From a virus (lineage: Duplodnaviria > Caudoviricetes), in IMG/VR virus record IMGVR_UViG_3300032038_000052, positions 1 through 64,000 of that record: a stretch of 64,000 nucleotides of DNA, one strand, 5' to 3'. Both the position numbers and the translations under genes were made by a program. This document shows, piece by piece, positions 4,424-14,306 of the stretch. The notes under the pieces were generated by a model. That model was not told the DNA's origin and searched no databases. It worked only from the letters and a program-made list of their open reading frames with translations. Within the stretch, counting starts at the first letter, position 1. Each line of letters begins with the position of its first letter.

Positions 4424-4861
4424 TTACAAGATAATGTCAAACCTATCGCTAACATCATCAATCCATCTTGTAAATGGATTGTAGACACAATAGGTTACAA
4501 TTGTATCTCCTTTATGGACTTTTCCCTTGAGGCATTTGTAACTAATGTAACCACCATTGCTACTTACACCATCAAGACGGTTATTGATTACTCTGCCAAC
4601 AATTCGCTCAATATAGAGCGTTTTGTCTTTTCTTGACCACAGTTTTCTAGCGGTCAACTTTCCCTCGGAAACAATCCTTACTTCCCCTCTGAAATGGTGG
4701 TATTTGCGGTATGTCTTACCGCACCATTTTATTTTTGTTGCGTCCCCATGCTGTGTAATGCGGATTGTATACCCATTGATGGTTTCCGTTGCGACCGTTT
4801 TTGCATAGGTCGGCGATCCCAACATAAGGATAAAAACACAGATGGTTATTAATTTTTTCAT
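4424..4861 (-). CDS. secreted/membrane-anchored hypothetical protein
   Basis: N-terminal MKKLITICVFILMLGSPTYA signal-peptide pattern; RBS AAGGAGG. Confidence 0.7.
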   Translation of the reverse strand: MKKLITICVFILMLGSPTYAKTVATETINGYTIRITQHGDATKIKWCGKTYRKYHHFRGEVRIVSEGKLTARKLWSRKDKTLYIERIVGRVINNRLDGVSSNGGYISYKCLKGKVHKGDTIVTYCVYNPFTRWIDDVSDRFDIIL

Positions 4862-4873
4862 AGCTTTTCCTCC

Positions 4874-5068
4874 TTATCTAGCTTTCATGCACCTCATCGG
4901 TGCATTATCCGTGTAATCAGATCCTGCGCAAATCATATACATGCAGTTTGCGCAGTAACAGGAACTTTTACAGGTTTCCTTTGCCTTTTTACAAGAGGGA
5001 TATCCCTCCTTCTCAAGGTCTTCATCGCATCCAAAGTAGACATTGTTCATAATCGCATTCCTTTTCAT
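4874..5068 (-). CDS. small Cys-rich protein
   Basis: Multiple CxxC-like motifs in 64 aa, RBS AAAAGGAG. Confidence 0.6.
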   Translation of the reverse strand: MKRNAIMNNVYFGCDEDLEKEGYPSCKKAKETCKSSCYCANCMYMICAGSDYTDNAPMRCMKAR

Positions 5069-5146
5069 AGTTTTTTTCTCCTTTTGCTAGATATTCATGG
5101 TTACAAGAATGCCCACAAGCACACTTCCCTTGTAGGCACAATCTAA

Positions 5147-5410
5147 TCATGAATTCATCATTTCTGCGATGATGTTGCCGAGATTTTCAAGTTCCTCACC
5201 GCTGAGGGTGATTCCCTTGGCGCAGATTTCTTCGCCCTGGTCGTTTACCTTCCACGGGCGAAGGTCATAAACAGGGTCACGACCGTTCCACTGCATGTAA
5301 CGCAGTTTTAATGCATATCCGCCTTTCCGTTCCTGGATAGTACCGCACTCTTCGAGTACGGTGTAGTTGATTTCGTTTTCCTTTTTTGTAGCGTTCTTAA
5401 TAATAGCCAT
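5147..5410 (-). CDS. PC4/YdbC-family ssDNA-binding protein
   Basis: KLRYMQWNGRDPVYDLRPW...KGITLS.EEL..L matches the bacterial PC4 (YdbC) pattern; RBS AAGGAGGT. Confidence 0.8.
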   Translation of the reverse strand: MAIIKNATKKENEINYTVLEECGTIQERKGGYALKLRYMQWNGRDPVYDLRPWKVNDQGEEICAKGITLSGEELENLGNIIAEMMNS

Positions 5411-5554
5411 TCTAGCTACCTCCTTATTTAATATTTAGTTATTAGTTTACATACACATGATATCAAAATGTCCCGCTAGTCCCCATAGGACTATGAAACA
5501 TACAACCATTACGCAGAGATAAATCTTTTCCCTCATTTCGTTTCCTTTCTTATC

Positions 5555-5959
5555 TTATGAATGCATCATTGCAACCCACGCTGCGTCTGCGGAATAAAAT
5601 CCGAGCAGATGCGCTGCGGCCTCCTTATCCATTCCGTCTACTTTTCCGAGGGACTTGCATCCAATAATTTTTCCTTCTGAGTCACGGACGGACTCATTCG
5701 GGATGAACACATCATCCCTGTCAACACATCTCTGTGCGACAAGGGATGAAACAACATATACAGTTTCCTCCTGCGGTGCTGGAAGATCCACGACATCCGA
5801 ATATACGGATTTTGTTACAGGAATACCTGCGATTTCGCCGATTGTCTCGGTCTTTACCGAAACCCGTGCGATAGTTCCCGATGGCTCTACGGACATAAGC
5901 GGAGAACCATCAGCAGTACAAAAGTCAATTCTGTGCGGGGTAAGATTCACAATCTTCAT
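5555..5959 (-). CDS. NLTPH-motif protein, putative Crn4-like ring nuclease
   Basis: MKIVNLTPH..., PSG..AR, LP.P....YVVS, D...P....RD..G.IIGC pattern; family assignment recalled, not searched. Confidence 0.5.
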   Translation of the reverse strand: MKIVNLTPHRIDFCTADGSPLMSVEPSGTIARVSVKTETIGEIAGIPVTKSVYSDVVDLPAPQEETVYVVSSLVAQRCVDRDDVFIPNESVRDSEGKIIGCKSLGKVDGMDKEAAAHLLGFYSADAAWVAMMHS

Positions 5960-6096
5960 GTTTTTTCCTCCTAAATATATGTTTTAATATTTTGATTACA
6001 CCCCTATCCAACCACTGAAGAGCCACGTTCTCTGCAATGGTCGTAGCTTTGGGGCAGAAAGCATCATAATACTTAAGAATAGTATACTTGATGCAA

Positions 6097-6211
6097 TGAG
6101 AGCACAAGGACTCGAACCTTGCCACCAAATTTGGGATAGTTCCCCAAAACCAAATAAACCCAAAGATAATATCATCCTTGGGTTTATTGTGTGTACCAAA
6201 TATTTACTCTC
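6097..6211 (-). ncRNA. tRNA-like element with expanded central arms
   Basis: Minus strand: acceptor GAGAGTA/TGCTCTC + A73, T-arm CAAGG-TTCGAGT-CCTTG, D-like TATT-TGGTACACAC-AATA; no canonical 7-nt anticodon loop. Confidence 0.55.
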
Positions 6212-7460
6212 ATAAATGCTATGGTTATTTTACCCACTTATAGCCTTTGCTATTCCTCATCGGATTTATAGTCGGTTTGGTCGTTCTCATCTCTCATTCG
6301 ACTTTGTATAACCCAACCCCCACCATAGTAAGGGTGCTAGGTTAACGGACTTTCACTCGTCAGACTCCTAGATGGATTGCCTGGTTATCCCAATTACACC
6401 GCTGTCGGATTTGAAGAGAGTGGTATCCCACTAGCGACTCCACACAAACTAGCGTCCATGCTTCACAGTCTCCCACCTATTCTGTACATCATTCGCATCC
6501 TTGTGCCAATGAACTAGGCATAATATTGTCCTCTGCTAGACAACTTCTACATGTTGCGTGACATTATTCACCACAGGTTTTCACCACTGCGGAGTTGTTC
6601 CTATGCACAGCTTTATTCGCTTAAACGTCCCCTTATCCCATGAGTACGTATGCACGTATCTATACTTCTGTAACTTTACCGCCTTACGTCATCAACGAAA
6701 ACCAAGCATATACAAAGGTGGTTCTTCACAGCCTATCACCCCAAAATGCAGGGTTAATGAATGCTTGCTAGTTCTATGTGCTCATGCACATACAGAGCTA
6801 GTCAGTCTTAATGCTCGTACTTCTCCGACCGCATTTATCTCGTCACAGAATAATATTCCGCCACGCCTGTTATGTGCTGACCATACCTACCCCTCGGCAC
6901 AGTATGATCCCCTGTCATTCCTCGCAAAACCGCAGAGAGAAATCGGGAATAGACCCCCACACACCGTGGAGTTACCCACGTTGGATTTGATACGCATAGT
7001 CACGCTTGTGGGCATGAAAATACGCATGGTTCGTGTCACGGCTACTCTACACCGTCACGTTATAGACTACGCCCTATCCTGGCACACTGTGCACAAAGCT
7101 CTCACTCCGACCAAATGTCGTCACACAGTAGCCCCACCGCAACAGAATTACCCATACACGGCTGTGCCAATACCGCCTAAGCGCACGGTATTATACGGCT
7201 GCAGAAGCTTCCCCTTTTCGGACATAGCCACGCCTATGATTTTGTCAAGGTGCGATTTCACCCATCTTAACCGAATACATCCCCAAATCAGCGGTTTTGA
7301 AGCGCACGTTCACAAGTGACACCGCCAAATACATACAGGCTAATCCTGCTGACATTCGCAGACATGCCGACAAACACTTTTACAGATACTTGACCATGCT
7401 AAATCATGCAGACATCCTGTGTCCATCCTTATGCGCACAACCCCCATAAAATCGGGAAAC
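6212..7460 (-). ncRNA. large structured ncRNA (~1.25 kb; GOLLD-like candidate)
   Basis: No credible sense ORF, G-rich minus strand, many hairpins (e.g. 6768-6801, 7171-7190), preceded by a boxA-like site, followed by a tRNA-like element; boundaries approximate. Confidence 0.65.
6417..6489 (-). ncRNA. 23S rRNA L1-stalk (H76-H78) mimic embedded in the ncRNA
   Basis: Minus strand TGTACAGAATAGGTGGGAGACTGTGAAGCATGGACGCTAGTTTGTGTGGAGTCGCTAGTGGGATACCACTCT follows the conserved bacterial 23S GGATAGGTGGGAG..TGAAG..H78..TGGGATACCAC pattern; flanks are not rRNA. Confidence 0.8.
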
Positions 7461-7464
7461 GCAG

Positions 7465-7484
7465 TATTCGATTGTCAATGTGCG
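7465..7484 (-). promoter_or_regulatory. boxA-like antitermination element 2
   Basis: CGCACATTGACAATCGAATA, near-identical to 8444-8463; resembles Firmicutes rrn boxA. Confidence 0.55.
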
Positions 7485-7550
7485 ACCCCCTGCCAAAATG
7501 GGCAGGGACGCACCGAGCCTAACGCCTTTTTATACTCGCTCGGTCGAGTC

Positions 7551-7573
7551 TGAATAGTCGGGTGTGAGCATGG
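7551..7573 (-). repeat. 3' arm of long-range inverted repeat (pairs with 8427-8449)
   Basis: CCATG-CTCACACCCGA-C-TATTCA pairs with TGAATA-TCGGGTGTGAG-T-CATGG: 22 bp with two single-nt bulges. Confidence 0.75.
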
Positions 7574-7581
7574 CTTAATTA

Positions 7582-8253
7582 TTACTTATTCTGAGCCTTG
7601 AGAGCCTTTTTCTCGGCTTTGGTCAGAATGTGGATGAACTTGTACTTGGGCAGAATGTCGCCCATGAGGTCGCAAAGCTCGCCCATAAACACGGTTCTCC
7701 ACATGTTCTCAGTCATAGCCTTGTTGTGCTTGCCTGTTTCGGCTTTACTGCTACCTGTGCCCTTGCCCTTGCGGACGCAGTGGTAGAGCGTGTCAAGGGT
7801 ATCCCAAGCGGGAGTCAGCCCCTGTGCAGTAAGCAAGTCCGCAATCGCCTGCGTATAGGCGGATACTCTCCAAGCGCCGTTGTCATCTTCCATGGAAGCC
7901 ACGTAGGACTTATACAGGGTCTTCCCAAAGATAGCGGTAACCTTGGACACAGCCTTTTCCTGCTCTGCCTGCCAATCAGACAGACGTTTCTCAGACTCAC
8001 GGATATTCTGCTCCATCTGCGCAATCTGATCCTCATAGTACGCCTTGTCGTGGATACCGAAAGACTTCTTGTCAATCAGCTCAAGATTGGTCGCAATGAT
8101 ACCCTTGGCGTTGGCGACTTCCTGCGCTTTCTTCTTGCGCAAGTCAGCAAGTTCGAAGTCGAAGATATGCCAAATAGCCATAGTGTCACGGAATGCCTTG
8201 GCGGACTTAACGTTAAAGTTAACCTTGCCTGCGTTGATAGTTGTGTTAGTCAT
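7582..8253 (-). CDS. first early protein (223 aa), coiled-coil/basic, function unknown
   Basis: Start reassigned to MTNTT (ATG 8253, AGAAAGTGAGG RBS); GC-rich, strongly biased codons; TAA stop. Confidence 0.8.
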   Translation of the reverse strand: MTNTTINAGKVNFNVKSAKAFRDTMAIWHIFDFELADLRKKKAQEVANAKGIIATNLELIDKKSFGIHDKAYYEDQIAQMEQNIRESEKRLSDWQAEQEKAVSKVTAIFGKTLYKSYVASMEDDNGAWRVSAYTQAIADLLTAQGLTPAWDTLDTLYHCVRKGKGTGSSKAETGKHNKAMTENMWRTVFMGELCDLMGDILPKYKFIHILTKAEKKALKAQNK

Positions 8254-8426
8254 AGTAATCCTCACTTTCTGCCCACTTTTGGGGCTGTGTAAAATTTGTG
8301 TGATAATGCACTCAAAGCGCCGAGAAACAGTGTTACCCATAGTCACCTATGCACCGCAAGTCTTTCTCATACTTGTAACCTCGGACTTGCCATTCAGTTT
8401 CAGACAGTCCCTACTTTGAGTAAGTC

Positions 8427-8449
8427 CCATGACTCACACCCGATATTCA
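8427..8449 (-). repeat. 5' arm of long-range inverted repeat
   Basis: Complementary to 7551-7573; overlaps the boxA-like element, as rrn processing stems do. Confidence 0.75.
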
Positions 8450-8463
8450 ATTTTCAATGTGCG
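8444..8463 (-). promoter_or_regulatory. boxA-like antitermination element 1
   Basis: CGCACATTGAAAATTGAATA about 40 nt downstream of the predicted TSS. Confidence 0.6.
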
Positions 8464-8510
8464 CTGTCCGAACCGCTCGGCTTGTGTTCCGTTCGTTTCG
8501 AACTGTCATC

Positions 8511-8538
8511 ATTAAAGCACATTGCTGCAATCTGTCAA
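8511..8538 (-). promoter_or_regulatory. sigmaA-type early promoter
   Basis: TTGACA-N16-TTTAAT with extended TGn, pointing into the early operon. Confidence 0.65.
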
Positions 8539-9270
8539 ATCCCTTGTATTTTCGGGCTTTTTCGACAAATTACAGTTTATAGAAATTGTCGATTGGGGGG
8601 TGGTTTCAGCGGACTAACTCCTTAAATCCTGGACGTTCCTGGAAGCAGTTCTCTTAAAATACTCACTCCAAAACCCAAATATTGTCCACAAATTCAACGC
8701 TTCACCAACCAATTTATGGAATATCGAAAAGCCTATCGCATTTAATTAATGCAAAACCAAAACAAGCCATTTTCCGGGCAAGACTTTTTAAAGCCAAGGA
8801 ATCCACAAAATCGCCTTAAAACATAGGTGACATATAAAAAATAATCCATCGAAAAATCCCAGCCACAAAGGCGGCCACTAAATATCCATTGCGTGAGAAG
8901 TCCAGGTCGCCGCCGCACTCAAAATCCTGGTGCGTACTCCAACCCCCTCGCTAGCCAAAACCTTCTATTCAATAGTCACCACCACCACCTAGCTCTCTGC
9001 TACTGAATTTCTTTTCTCAATGCGTACATAAATATTGGATTTTCATGATCTATGTGCGTACAACCATTTATCTAGGAGTACAAAGTTATTGTGAACTGGC
9101 TGCAGAGCGTAGCGTCGCAGACAGTTCACCCTCAAGCCCCAAGAGTGGGGCGGCCCAGAGCGAAGCCTGGGTGAGGTTGGGGTTGACATATCTCAAACAT
9201 TCGAATATACTTTTGTCGAAAATATTGTCATTTAATATTTAGCTGTTAAAACTCGCAGAGGAGATTGTCT

Positions 9271-9852
9271 ATGCAGATAATTAGAGATGACTTGGCAATC
9301 GTATCTATGGAAACTGGCGAAATCCTAGATACACTAAAAACTGGGGATAACCTATCACTAGTACGTGCAGAACAGATTGAGTACACAAAGTCTCATATTC
9401 AGAACTTTAACTCAAACAAAACATTCGTTAAGATATATGATGATGTTGTTCCACTGCTAGAAAAATATTTAACCTTGCCGGAGTTTAAGTTCACTATATG
9501 TCTAACTCCACATGTATCATTTGAAGACTGCATTATCCGTAGGACTATGGATCGCAAATCTCAAATATTAAATATGCACGATTTGGCTGAATTACATGGT
9601 TACAAGTACGATTATGTTCGCAAGATAATGTCTTCACTAAAAAACAAGGGCGTTATTGGAAGACATGATACAGGGAGTATCCTTAAAGAGTATTCTGGAA
9701 ATAGTAACACTGTGTATACTGTTAACCCATATATATTCTTCCGTGGTGCAGATATACTAACCCCAGTCCATTCCTTCTACTCAAACAGTGGATGGAAAGA
9801 ATTGTTAGCAAGAGAAAATAAACCTATTAGTTCGGCTATAAAATGTAGCTGA
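9271..9852 (+). CDS. RepL-like winged-HTH DNA-binding/replication protein
   Basis: LAELHGYKYDYVRKIMSSLKNKGVI HTH and YTVNPYIFFRG motif typical of RepL-like proteins; RBS AGAGGAG. Confidence 0.6.
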   Translation: MQIIRDDLAIVSMETGEILDTLKTGDNLSLVRAEQIEYTKSHIQNFNSNKTFVKIYDDVVPLLEKYLTLPEFKFTICLTPHVSFEDCIIRRTMDRKSQILNMHDLAELHGYKYDYVRKIMSSLKNKGVIGRHDTGSILKEYSGNSNTVYTVNPYIFFRGADILTPVHSFYSNSGWKELLARENKPISSAIKCS

Positions 9853-13495: not shown

Positions 13496-14093
13496 ATGCT
13501 AAATTCTGTTCATAACTAGTAACTCAGTGCAGAGCGGTTAATCACCGTGCTGAGAGCGTCTGTATTTCGGAGTGGTTTTGTATGGGATACTTTATATTAC
13601 TACTCCCCCACTTGTCGTGAGGCAATAAAGGATACTGGCTAAAAGCCTAAAGAAAAGGATGTGTACTGAGATTATATGTAGTCAAAGGTTGTGTCTGGTC
13701 GTCCTCATAATAGCACCGTGAGGAGCGGGAAACCCTGATGCCTATGGGCTGGTAACCTATAGGAGGGCAAGTAGGGGAACACCAAATAAGAGGATTTGTC
13801 GTGAAACAGAGAAATCTGTGTATAAGATCAGTTCAACGAGTGAGTAGCCCAAGACAACGAATTTCAATGAAAATATTGGCATGTAGTGGAACATGCGTAT
13901 GTTATCATTCTGAATGATGGGTGAAAGTTACAGGTAACCAATCCTGTATGTGCGGAGGCTGGTGTATTCCAGTGTGGCAAGAAGTTTATAGGCGACGGCT
14001 TATAGGCTCAGACTTGTTATCACATTGACCGAATATGGGTGCGTATAATCGAGGCAAGGCGAAGGTCTACTTTTTGTGTACAGAATTTAGTGT
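13496..14093 (+). ncRNA. ~600-nt structured ncRNA, ROOL-like candidate
   Basis: Closing 14-bp stem 13496-13509/14080-14093; nested hairpins (TCCTCA..TGAGGA, CCTATGGG..CCTATAGG, CAGG-TAACCAAT-CCTG); no ORF; followed by a tRNA. Confidence 0.65.
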
Positions 14094-14191
14094 TTAATTC
14101 GTGGTTGATATTTTCGGCCCACCACCTGGTACGTCAAGCTGGGAAATTCTAGTGGGAGACCCGCTACAAGGAGAGGTTGTGCTCTCTACTT

Positions 14192-14262
14192 AGAGTATGT
14201 GGTGTAATGGTAGCACGCTTGGTTTGGGACCATGAGGAGGCGTTCAAGTCGCACATATTCTA
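14192..14262 (+). tRNA. tRNA-Pro(TGG), imperfect stems
   Basis: D-arm GTGT-AATGGTA-GCAC, anticodon loop TT-TGG-GA, T-loop TTCAAGT; mismatches in T and anticodon stems; no CCA. Confidence 0.7.
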
Positions 14263-14306
14263 TTTATCAGTAAGCATTTACTGAAATACATTGAAGGAGA
14301 ATATAA

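What the first reader, a model, noticed from the sequence alone, without database searches (positions are those of the whole stretch)
6417..6489. A 23S rRNA L1-stalk copy built into a phage non-coding RNA
The minus strand reads GATGTACAGAATAGGTGGGAGACTGTGAAGCATGGACGCTAGTTTGTGTGGAGTCGCTAGTGGGATACCACTCT. This is the conserved bacterial 23S H76-H78 pattern (GATAGGTGGGAG...TGAAG...H78 hairpin...TGGGATACCAC), with GGTGG/CCACT and the H78 stem still pairable. The flanks are not rRNA but can form their own closing helix (GGATGCGAATGA / TCTTCAAATCC), so it looks like a grafted domain rather than a stray rRNA fragment. Established: this domain binds ribosomal protein uL1 and uses an interdigitated double T-loop to grip the tRNA elbow, as T-box stem I and RNase P do. 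Inference: the phage RNA could titrate uL1 (altering rplK-rplA feedback or E-site function), capture tRNAs, or carry them as cargo. That would be notable in a phage that rewires decoding. I know of no described phage RNA with this module.
Basis: partly seen in the sequence, partly recalled or inferred. Interest (0 to 1): 0.93.

Follow-up and report, generated by a model that had tools for sequence, protein, structure and literature searches.

The report
Free-standing ribosomal L1-stalk domain in phage RNA
A rumen phage carries, inside a 1.3-kb non-coding RNA that begins with a self-cleaving ribozyme, a complete stand-alone copy of the ribosome's L1 stalk (the part that binds protein uL1 and grips tRNA elbows). 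I found the same kind of module in at least nine other large-phage lineages, and no paper describing it.

Summary
Window 6417-6488 (minus strand) passes Rfam's bacterial 23S threshold as a local match to the L1 stalk only (50.7 bits, model 2135-2206). It is the only rRNA-like piece in the 78.6-kb phage record.

It is not an assembly chimera. Contigs from other studies bridge the module and both non-rRNA flanks.

The module keeps H77, H78, both T-loops and a natural tRNA-elbow platform (Firmicutes-type A:G). It sits on its own imperfect closing helix in an ORF-poor stretch of about 1.3 kb. A strong pistol ribozyme lies at the 5' end of that stretch and a tRNA-like element at the 3' end.

L1-stalk modules with non-rRNA flanks occur in at least nine other phage lineages in IMG/VR:
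- There is one copy in each of the five records searched whole.
- In four lineages they lie inside or within 2 kb of co-oriented tRNA genes.
- In two lineages they lie in a homologous ~1.1-kb RNA behind a twister-like ribozyme. There, 7 of 18 pairs have changed on both sides and still pair.

Phages related to the window phage, including two complete genomes, lack the module, so it is accessory.

Function is untested. The likeliest role is a free L1-stalk RNA that binds host uL1 and/or docks tRNA elbows.

This scan has noted the same class on other DNA (e1-5789241, e1-5774110, e1-1010105).

The parts
7481..7549 (-). Pistol self-cleaving ribozyme at the 5' end of the ORF-poor stretch. Predicted cleavage is at the G-U step 7509/7508 (the site position is recalled from the family description, not tested).
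   Evidence: Rfam RF02679, 72.1 bits against a gathering score of 34.5, full length 1-68; coordinates checked.
6220..7508 (-). Body of a large (~1.29 kb) non-coding RNA. G-rich and C-poor on the sense strand, with no match to GOLLD, ROOL or any other Rfam family.
   Evidence: There are 21-30 stops per sense frame, and 14-20 even if TAG is read through. The only long ORF is antisense (6558-7319 +); it has no Pfam family and no homologue other than itself among 5.8 billion proteins. No Rfam match beyond pistol and LSU at E<=1. The fold z-score is only -0.38.
6487..6500 (-). 5' strand of the module's own H76-like closing helix.
   Evidence: Constrained fold. Analogous lineage-specific closing helices appear in other phage modules.
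6417..6488 (-). L1-stalk module. H77 is 6473-6477 with 6419-6423. H78 is 6436-6470. T-loop 1 is 6478-6483. Loop B is 6424-6435 and contains T-loop 2 at 6426-6430. The elbow-platform residues are 6485 (equivalent to 2112, A) and 6428 (equivalent to 2169, G).
   Evidence: Rfam RF02541 local match; column mapping; motif definitions from PMC3664808.
6407..6418 (-). 3' strand of the closing helix.
6097..6219 (-). tRNA-like element about 200 nt downstream. It has a 7-8 bp acceptor-like stem and a T-arm with a 7-nt loop, and two hairpins replace the D and anticodon arms. It may define the 3' end of the RNA. Its long hairpin also scores as terminator-like.
   Evidence: Fold z = -4.21, 0 of 200 shuffles as stable; terminator-like site 6188-6153. 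No tRNA model match, so tRNA-likeness is structural only.

Best explanation
The segment is a functional, stand-alone L1-stalk domain (top of H76, H77, H78 and the interdigitated double T-loop) built into a ~1.3-kb phage non-coding RNA. A pistol ribozyme probably cuts the 5' end of that RNA, and processing or termination at a tRNA-like element probably sets the 3' end. Because every RNA element that uL1 contacts in the ribosome is present in bacterial-consensus form, the transcript most likely binds host uL1. That would make a free L1-stalk RNP on the tip of a long arm, exposing the same purine platform that stacks on the tRNA elbow. The phage would use it to hold uL1 and/or tRNAs on the large RNA. 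Shown here: the sequence, the conserved fold, the non-rRNA context, the recurrence in other phages, and compensatory evolution. Inferred: binding of uL1 and tRNA, the processing sites, and any effect on translation.
For: 1. The local LSU match covers only the L1 stalk.
2. Independent assemblies bridge the module and its flanks. A 528-nt contig of run X2 covers 6383-6910 with 0 differences. A 5.5-kb contig of run X6 covers 5977-7365 with 38 differences and 15 gaps, of which only one listed difference lies in the module (some differences are not shown). The stretch is held in 20 runs of 14 studies.
3. The T-loop 1 residues (AG.AUA) and the UG of T-loop 2 are invariant in all 11 phage modules aligned, although the search patterns did not require them. 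These residues belong to the six-residue invariant core of the double T-loop module (PMC3664808).
4. The uL1 contact elements are the H77 duplex, J1-2, the base of H78 and loop B (PMC5689012). All are present and fully paired.
5. H78 is kept in every phage lineage, although elbow docking in T-box leaders does not need it.
6. The module recurs in at least 9 other lineages with non-rRNA flanks. In the five records searched whole there is one copy each, including one complete and one 95% complete genome. Four lineages were assembled twice from different samples, which argues against chimeras.
7. Across the phage modules 95.9% of cells are paired and 13 of 18 pairs have changes on both sides.
8. 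L005 and L012 carry the module at collinear positions of a homologous ~1.1-kb RNA. Between them, 7 of 18 pairs changed on both sides and 94.4% of cells stay paired.
9. The module is co-oriented with tRNA genes in L003, L009, L010, L023 and L028.
Against: There are no binding or expression data. The only RNA-library evidence is one 151-nt metatranscriptome contig at 7071-7221, which may derive from DNA. The large RNA body folds no better than shuffles (z = -0.38) and has no detectable homologue, so its structure is unsupported by covariation. Nine relatives by RNA polymerase (52-77% aa identity) show no module; five were searched as whole records, including two complete genomes, and four only in the stretches fetched. 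It is therefore dispensable for the clade. Covariation among phage modules could partly be inherited from different bacterial 23S sources rather than arise in phages; only the L005/L012 pair escapes this objection. No uL1 gene or conserved neighbouring protein points to a partner.
Confidence: 0.5

Rival explanations
1. RNA-only tRNA-elbow dock. The double T-loop platform is the functional part, as in T-box stem I and RNase P. The large RNA uses it to capture or position tRNAs (phage or host), or its own tRNA-like 3' element, without any need for uL1.
For: The six-residue T-loop core is intact and the A:G platform is a natural type. Modules lie inside or beside co-oriented tRNA arrays in four lineages. 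A tRNA-like element lies 200 nt downstream in the window. GOLLD and ROOL, also phage RNAs found near tRNAs, have been proposed to enclose tRNAs (bioRxiv 10.1101/2024.12.08.627333).
Against: Elbow docking alone does not need H78. H77 and the base of H78 are the uL1 surface, yet every phage lineage keeps both at full length and paired. About half of the lineages show no tRNA gene in the DNA held.
Confidence: 0.25
2. Decoy for another factor that recognises the L1 stalk, such as an E-site ABCF ATPase, EF-P, or a host defence or toxin enzyme that attacks this rRNA region. The phage would protect or reprogram ribosomes by offering a free copy.
For: Only the general fact that the complete stalk head, not a minimal protein site, is copied, and that other rRNA-domain mimics were noted in phages by this scan (unchecked notes).
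Against: I know of no toxin or defence system aimed at H76-78. The factors named bind the stalk together with the ribosome and P/E-site tRNA, which a free module cannot reproduce (established knowledge, not tested here).
Confidence: 0.08
3. Passenger fragment. A piece of host 23S rRNA was captured by illegitimate recombination and is carried without function.
For: The module is 89-91% identical to sampled bacterial 23S sequences and closer to them than to any other phage module, which are at most 76% identical. Relatives of the phage lack it.
Against: The same domain boundaries with a private closing helix recur in at least 10 lineages. There is one copy in each of the five records searched whole and no other rRNA piece in the window's record. 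Compensatory evolution occurs inside a homologous phage RNA. The module is retained with one change across variants from many studies.
Confidence: 0.08
4. Cis-acting uL1 sensor. Like the L11-operon leader, the module would let free uL1 control expression of the downstream 134-aa gene (5555-5959).
For: uL1 is a known translational repressor that acts through rRNA-like mRNA sites. The module is upstream of a co-oriented gene.
Against: The module is about 450 nt from the start codon, and a stable tRNA-like element and a terminator-like hairpin lie between. In other lineages the module sits between tRNAs, not before genes.
Confidence: 0.05
5. Assembly chimera between phage DNA and host rRNA.
For: rRNA contigs of other organisms pile up on 6436-6488 in the same samples.
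Against: Those contigs differ at 6 or more positions and diverge at the module edges. Phage contigs from independent studies cross both junctions without a difference.
Confidence: 0.01

Closest known systems
L1 stalk of bacterial 23S rRNA (H76-H78, E. coli about 2093-2196; Rfam RF02541 positions 2135-2206)
   Same: Same helices, same junction lengths (9-nt and 12-nt T-loop strands), same invariant T-loop core, a natural platform pair, and a consensus uL1 site. It is 89-91% identical to the nearest sampled 23S sequences.
   Different: It is not part of an rRNA. It is 72-78 nt closed by a private helix inside a phage non-coding RNA, and there is no other rRNA sequence in the record.
[quoted passage not shown]
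   Same: Same AG..A / UG..A core and stacking platform for the tRNA elbow.
   Different: Those modules lack H78 and the uL1 site and share no sequence ancestry with the stalk. The window shows no T-box or RNase P match.
uL1 autoregulatory site in L11/L1 operon mRNA leaders
   Same: An rRNA-mimicking RNA outside the ribosome that binds uL1.
   Different: The leader site is a reduced mimic with a short J2-1 and no T-loop module, and it lies before rplK/rplA. Here the full stalk head is present and no uL1 gene was found in the 78.6 kb held, which is 46% complete.
GOLLD and ROOL large phage RNAs
   Same: Large, ORF-free and phage-encoded, near tRNA or tRNA-like elements. This phage also has a true ROOL at 13499-14087.
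   Different: There is no sequence or covariance-model match to either family. Neither family is reported to contain an rRNA domain or a 5' self-cleaving ribozyme (and my own knowledge).
Stand-alone L1-stalk RNAs noted earlier in this scan (e1-5789241 peat phage, e1-5774110, e1-1010105)
   Same: The same module as a free element, often beside tRNA genes (AI notes, unchecked apart from my own census).
   Different: Here the module is a domain of a 1.3-kb ribozyme-headed RNA. A second, unrelated large-RNA family (L005/L012) shows the same design.

Membership tests
L1-stalk fold of bacterial LSU rRNA | Covariance-model match to H76(top)-H77-H78 above the curated threshold | tested here: met
   50.7 bits against 50, model 2135-2206, posterior 1.00.
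L1-stalk fold of bacterial LSU rRNA | Six invariant double T-loop core residues (AG..A in 2114-2119, UG..A in 2167-2171) and a platform pair 2112:2169 | tested here: met
   T-loop 1 is 6478-6483, T-loop 2 is 6426-6430, and the platform is A:G, which occurs in 13 of 91 natural sequences sampled.
L1-stalk fold of bacterial LSU rRNA | uL1 contact elements: 5-bp H77, 2-nt J1-2, paired base of H78, 12-nt loop B | tested here: met
   All are present with standard pairs. Binding itself cannot be tested with these tools.
23S ribosomal RNA gene | Module embedded in a contiguous, full-length LSU rRNA | tested here: not met
   Only 72 nt match in the 78.6-kb record, and the flanks are unrelated to 23S.
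GOLLD / ROOL | Match to RF01998 or RF03087 | tested here: not met
   No match in 4500-9500 at E<=1. ROOL matches elsewhere in the window, at 13499-14087.
Pistol ribozyme (5' element of the RNA) | Full-length match above the curated threshold | tested here: met
   72.1 bits against 34.5, model 1-68. Cleavage was not tested.
r-protein L1 mRNA leader | Located in the 5' UTR of rplK/rplA | tested here: not met
   No Ribosomal_L1 (PF00687) match in the record. The next gene is an unannotated 134-aa ORF.
T-box leader / RNase P RNA | Covariance-model match and family-specific elements (specifier and antiterminator; catalytic core) | tested here: not met
   No such match at E<=1.

The most novel reading that the evidence does not exclude
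Large phages have repeatedly taken the L1-stalk head from bacterial 23S rRNA and used it as a docking domain, either as a small RNA in tRNA arrays or as an arm of ribozyme-processed giant RNAs. These RNAs would form free L1-stalk RNPs that hold uL1 and tRNAs off the ribosome. That would be a previously unrecognised way for viruses to act on the host translation machinery, and it would give a first concrete ligand for a giant phage RNA.
Probability: 0.3. Interest if true: 0.9.

Novelty: new variant of a known kind. Interest (0 to 1): 0.8.

Why it matters
Giant phage RNAs such as GOLLD and ROOL have solved structures but no known ligand or function. This large phage RNA contains a domain whose partners are known from the ribosome (uL1 and the tRNA elbow), so its function can be tested directly by binding assays and cryo-EM. 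The module recurs in unrelated large phages, apparently derived from different bacterial 23S types. That points to repeated selection for a free copy of a ribosomal functional centre. It would extend RNA mimicry of the ribosome from cellular mRNA leaders to viruses.

Tried and rejected
1. Mosaic idea. An exact 39-nt match of H77-H78 occurs only in Rothia 23S among 185,579 species genomes, and all 8 differences from Rothia fall in the two T-loop strands. I first read this as directed change of the T-loops. I rejected it because Bacillota 23S sequences are equally close (8 of 72 differences) and already carry the window's T-loop type. The phage has 38% G+C and its RNA-polymerase relatives are Clostridia and gut phages, so Rothia is unlikely as host.
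2. A at positions 2116 and 2165 as a phage-specific signature. Rejected: A:A occurs in 16 of 91 natural 23S sequences.
3. Metagenome scans. The window-specific pattern found nothing. The looser pattern returned 80 loci, all true 23S, so no new phage copies came from there.
4. Relatives by the 223-aa neighbour gene: none found. Relatives by RNA polymerase: nine loci, none with the module or the large RNA.
5. Homology between the window RNA and the L005/L012 RNA: only the module is shared. A pattern scan for further members of the L005/L012 family returned only the four known copies.
6. Cultured phages (INPHARED): module-like hits are all contaminating or true 23S records, including Paenibacillus phage Pd_22F.
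7. A second rRNA mimic (the uL11 GTPase-centre motif) in the window: none.
8. Shared neighbouring proteins among module loci: none at E<=1e-4.
9. A phage uL1 gene: none in the DNA held.
10. Thermodynamic support for the large RNA or the module: none.
11. Other pattern hits in IMG/VR (L011, L013-15, L017, L018, L021, L022, L024-27, L029-31, L033, L034) are chance matches in G+C-rich coding DNA, because the covariance model does not score them.

Full report
OBSERVATION. A scan of the whole window against Rfam 15 gives five matches above curated thresholds. One is LSU_rRNA_bacteria at 6417-6488 (-): 50.7 bits against a gathering score of 50, E 3.7e-12, model positions 2135-2206. The alignment shows that every predicted pair of H77 and H78 is standard and the posterior probability is 1.00. 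It is the only rRNA-like match in the whole 78.6-kb IMG/VR record, which CheckV rates 46% complete. BLAST against a true 23S aligns only the module. The alignment to the nearest 23S sequences breaks down on both sides of it.

NOT AN ARTEFACT. The stretch 5900-7700 is held in 20 public runs from 14 studies, almost all bovine or sheep gut. When contigs were laid on it, a 528-nt contig of run X2 covers 6383-6910 without a difference, so it crosses both junctions. A 5.5-kb contig of run X6 covers 5977-7365 with 38 differences and 15 gaps, and only one listed difference lies in the module (6434; some differences are not shown). rRNA contigs of other organisms pile up on 6436-6488. They differ at 6 or more positions and run off as loose ends at the module edges.

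ANATOMY IN THE WINDOW.
- The module lies in an ORF-poor stretch between two minus-strand genes.
- The 5' end of that stretch carries a pistol ribozyme at 7549-7481 (72.1 bits against 34.5).
- From the predicted cleavage step (7509/7508, site position recalled from the family description) to about 6220 is 1,289 nt.
- The sense strand has 21-30 stops per frame.
- The only long ORF is antisense. It has no Pfam family and no homologue other than itself among 5.8 billion proteins.
A further outer helix follows, so the module sits at the tip of a long imperfect arm.
- About 200 nt downstream is a stable tRNA-shaped element at 6097-6219 (z = -4.2). No tRNA model matches it, and its long hairpin also scores as a terminator.
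- The RNA body is not more stable than shuffles (z = -0.38).
- It matches no Rfam family.

THE MODULE AGAINST WHAT DEFINES AN L1 STALK. Lehmann et al. (PMC3664808) define three features:
- T-loop 1 is 2114-2119 (AG..A with an extra U).
- T-loop 2 is 2167-2171 (UG..A).
- The tRNA-elbow platform is the pair 2112:2169.

In window coordinates these are 6478-6483, 6426-6430, and 6485 with 6428. All six core residues are present. The platform is A:G, the type found in the Bacillota sampled here and in 13 of 91 natural sequences. uL1 contacts the H77 duplex, J1-2, the base of H78 and loop B (PMC5689012). All of these are present with consensus lengths.

SOURCE. An exact 39-nt match occurs only in Rothia 23S among one genome each of 185,579 species. 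However, Bacillota 23S sequences are just as close overall (8 of 72 differences). The phage has 38% G+C, and its RNA polymerase resembles those of gut and Clostridia phages. The source rRNA is therefore unknown. The nearest sampled 23S sequence is 89-91% identical.

RECURRENCE. Three pattern scans of IMG/VR, followed by a flank test against a true 23S and by my covariance model R1, give genuine modules with non-rRNA flanks in L003/L004, L005/L006, L009/L010, L012/L032, L016/L020, L019, L023, L028 and probably L007.
- Most lie on contigs of 100-205 kb.
- Four lineages were assembled twice from different samples.
- The five records searched whole each hold exactly one copy, including one complete genome and one 95% complete genome.
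- None of those five has the window's RNA polymerase, so they are unrelated phages.
- In L009/L010 the module sits inside a tRNA array. In L003, L023 and L028 it lies 0.5-1.6 kb from co-oriented tRNAs.
- In L005/L006 and L012/L032 it lies 0.8-0.9 kb behind a twister-P1-like ribozyme (42-44 bits, below the curated 67), within a homologous ~1.1-kb ORF-poor RNA.
- The ribozyme, then large RNA, then L1 module near the 3' end is the same layout as in the window. Apart from the module, the two RNAs share no sequence.

SELECTION. Across the 11 phage modules, 95.9% of cells form standard pairs and 13 of 18 pairs show changes on both sides. No shuffle reaches this, and slid registers give 38-47%. Part of this could be inherited from different bacterial sources, because the modules are 58-83% identical to each other and each is nearer to some natural 23S. 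The L005/L012 pair avoids that objection. In collinear positions of a homologous RNA, 7 of 18 pairs changed on both sides and 94.4% of cells stay paired. The T-loop 1 residues and the UG of T-loop 2 are invariant in all phage modules, although the search patterns did not demand them.

DISTRIBUTION IN THE WINDOW'S OWN CLADE. Nine phage loci with 52-77% identical RNA polymerase show neither the module nor the large RNA. Five were searched as whole records, including two complete genomes, and four only in the stretches fetched; one search is the positive control for the model. One relative has an HDV-like ribozyme at the corresponding place. The element is therefore an accessory cassette, not a clade feature.

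MECHANISM. Isolated H76-78 fragments are known to bind L1, and that binding is conserved across species (established knowledge). An exposed transcript with this domain should therefore bind host uL1. I take this as the most secure inference (about 0.5 for a uL1-containing free stalk). The platform could then dock tRNA elbows, with or without uL1 (RNA-only docking about 0.25). This would fit the tRNA-array context and proposals that giant phage RNAs hold tRNAs. Weaker rivals are a decoy for another stalk-binding factor, a cis-acting uL1 sensor, and a neutral passenger. An assembly chimera is excluded.

NOVELTY. Searches of 8.4 million papers and preprints for L1 stalk or double T-loop together with phage terms returned no description of such an RNA. 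The nearest item is a cyanophage that encodes the uL1 protein (PMC13157829). Rfam 15 has no family for it. This scan had already noted stand-alone L1-stalk RNAs on other DNA. My census is independent of those notes and agrees with them. What this window adds is the module as a domain of ribozyme-headed giant RNAs.

Noticed in passing
window 13499-14087 (+), with tRNA-Pro at 14191-14263: A full-length ROOL RNA (307 bits) lies directly upstream of a tRNA. This phage therefore carries two giant RNAs of different kinds.
   Followed up: no
window 33887-33959 (+): A tRNA with anticodon CUA (called tRNA-Pyl by ARAGORN), that is, an amber suppressor. This fits TAG recoding of late genes.
   Followed up: no
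L005 8350-9800 (-), L006 1270-2920 (-), L012 245-1750 (+), L032 12100-13800 (+): An undescribed ~1.1-kb ORF-poor RNA family in 157-170-kb phages. It has a twister-P1-like ribozyme, a conserved core of about 200 nt, and an L1-stalk module. The flanking proteins of L005 and L012 share no similarity, so the RNA appears to move as a cassette.
   Followed up: partly
L068 5067-5137 (-): An HDV-like ribozyme (F. prausnitzii type, 46.4 bits against 44) lies in a complete 161-kb relative of the window phage, at the place that corresponds to the window's pistol ribozyme. Several relatives have 1.0-1.7-kb ORF-poor gaps there.
   Followed up: partly
window 7257-7319: A hypervariable patch of the large RNA. 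The X6 variant differs here by about 20 substitutions and six single-base indels, while 6290-7250 is almost unchanged.
   Followed up: no
L009 7838-7956 (-), L010 5499-5619 and 7976-8077 (-): Weak YrlA (Y RNA-like) matches (33-40 bits against 69) lie inside the same tRNA arrays that hold the L1-stalk module.
   Followed up: no
L055 1017-3389 (Paenibacillus phage Pd_22F, MZ092003.1): The deposited 'complete genome' contains about 2.4 kb that aligns to 23S rRNA, partly annotated as hypothetical proteins. This is probably host DNA or a misassembly, not a module.
   Followed up: partly
L037, L039, L042 (genome contigs): MAG bins labelled Saccharibacteria, Nanosynbacter and Streptococcus carry Rothia-type 23S contigs. 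This is probably binning contamination.
   Followed up: no
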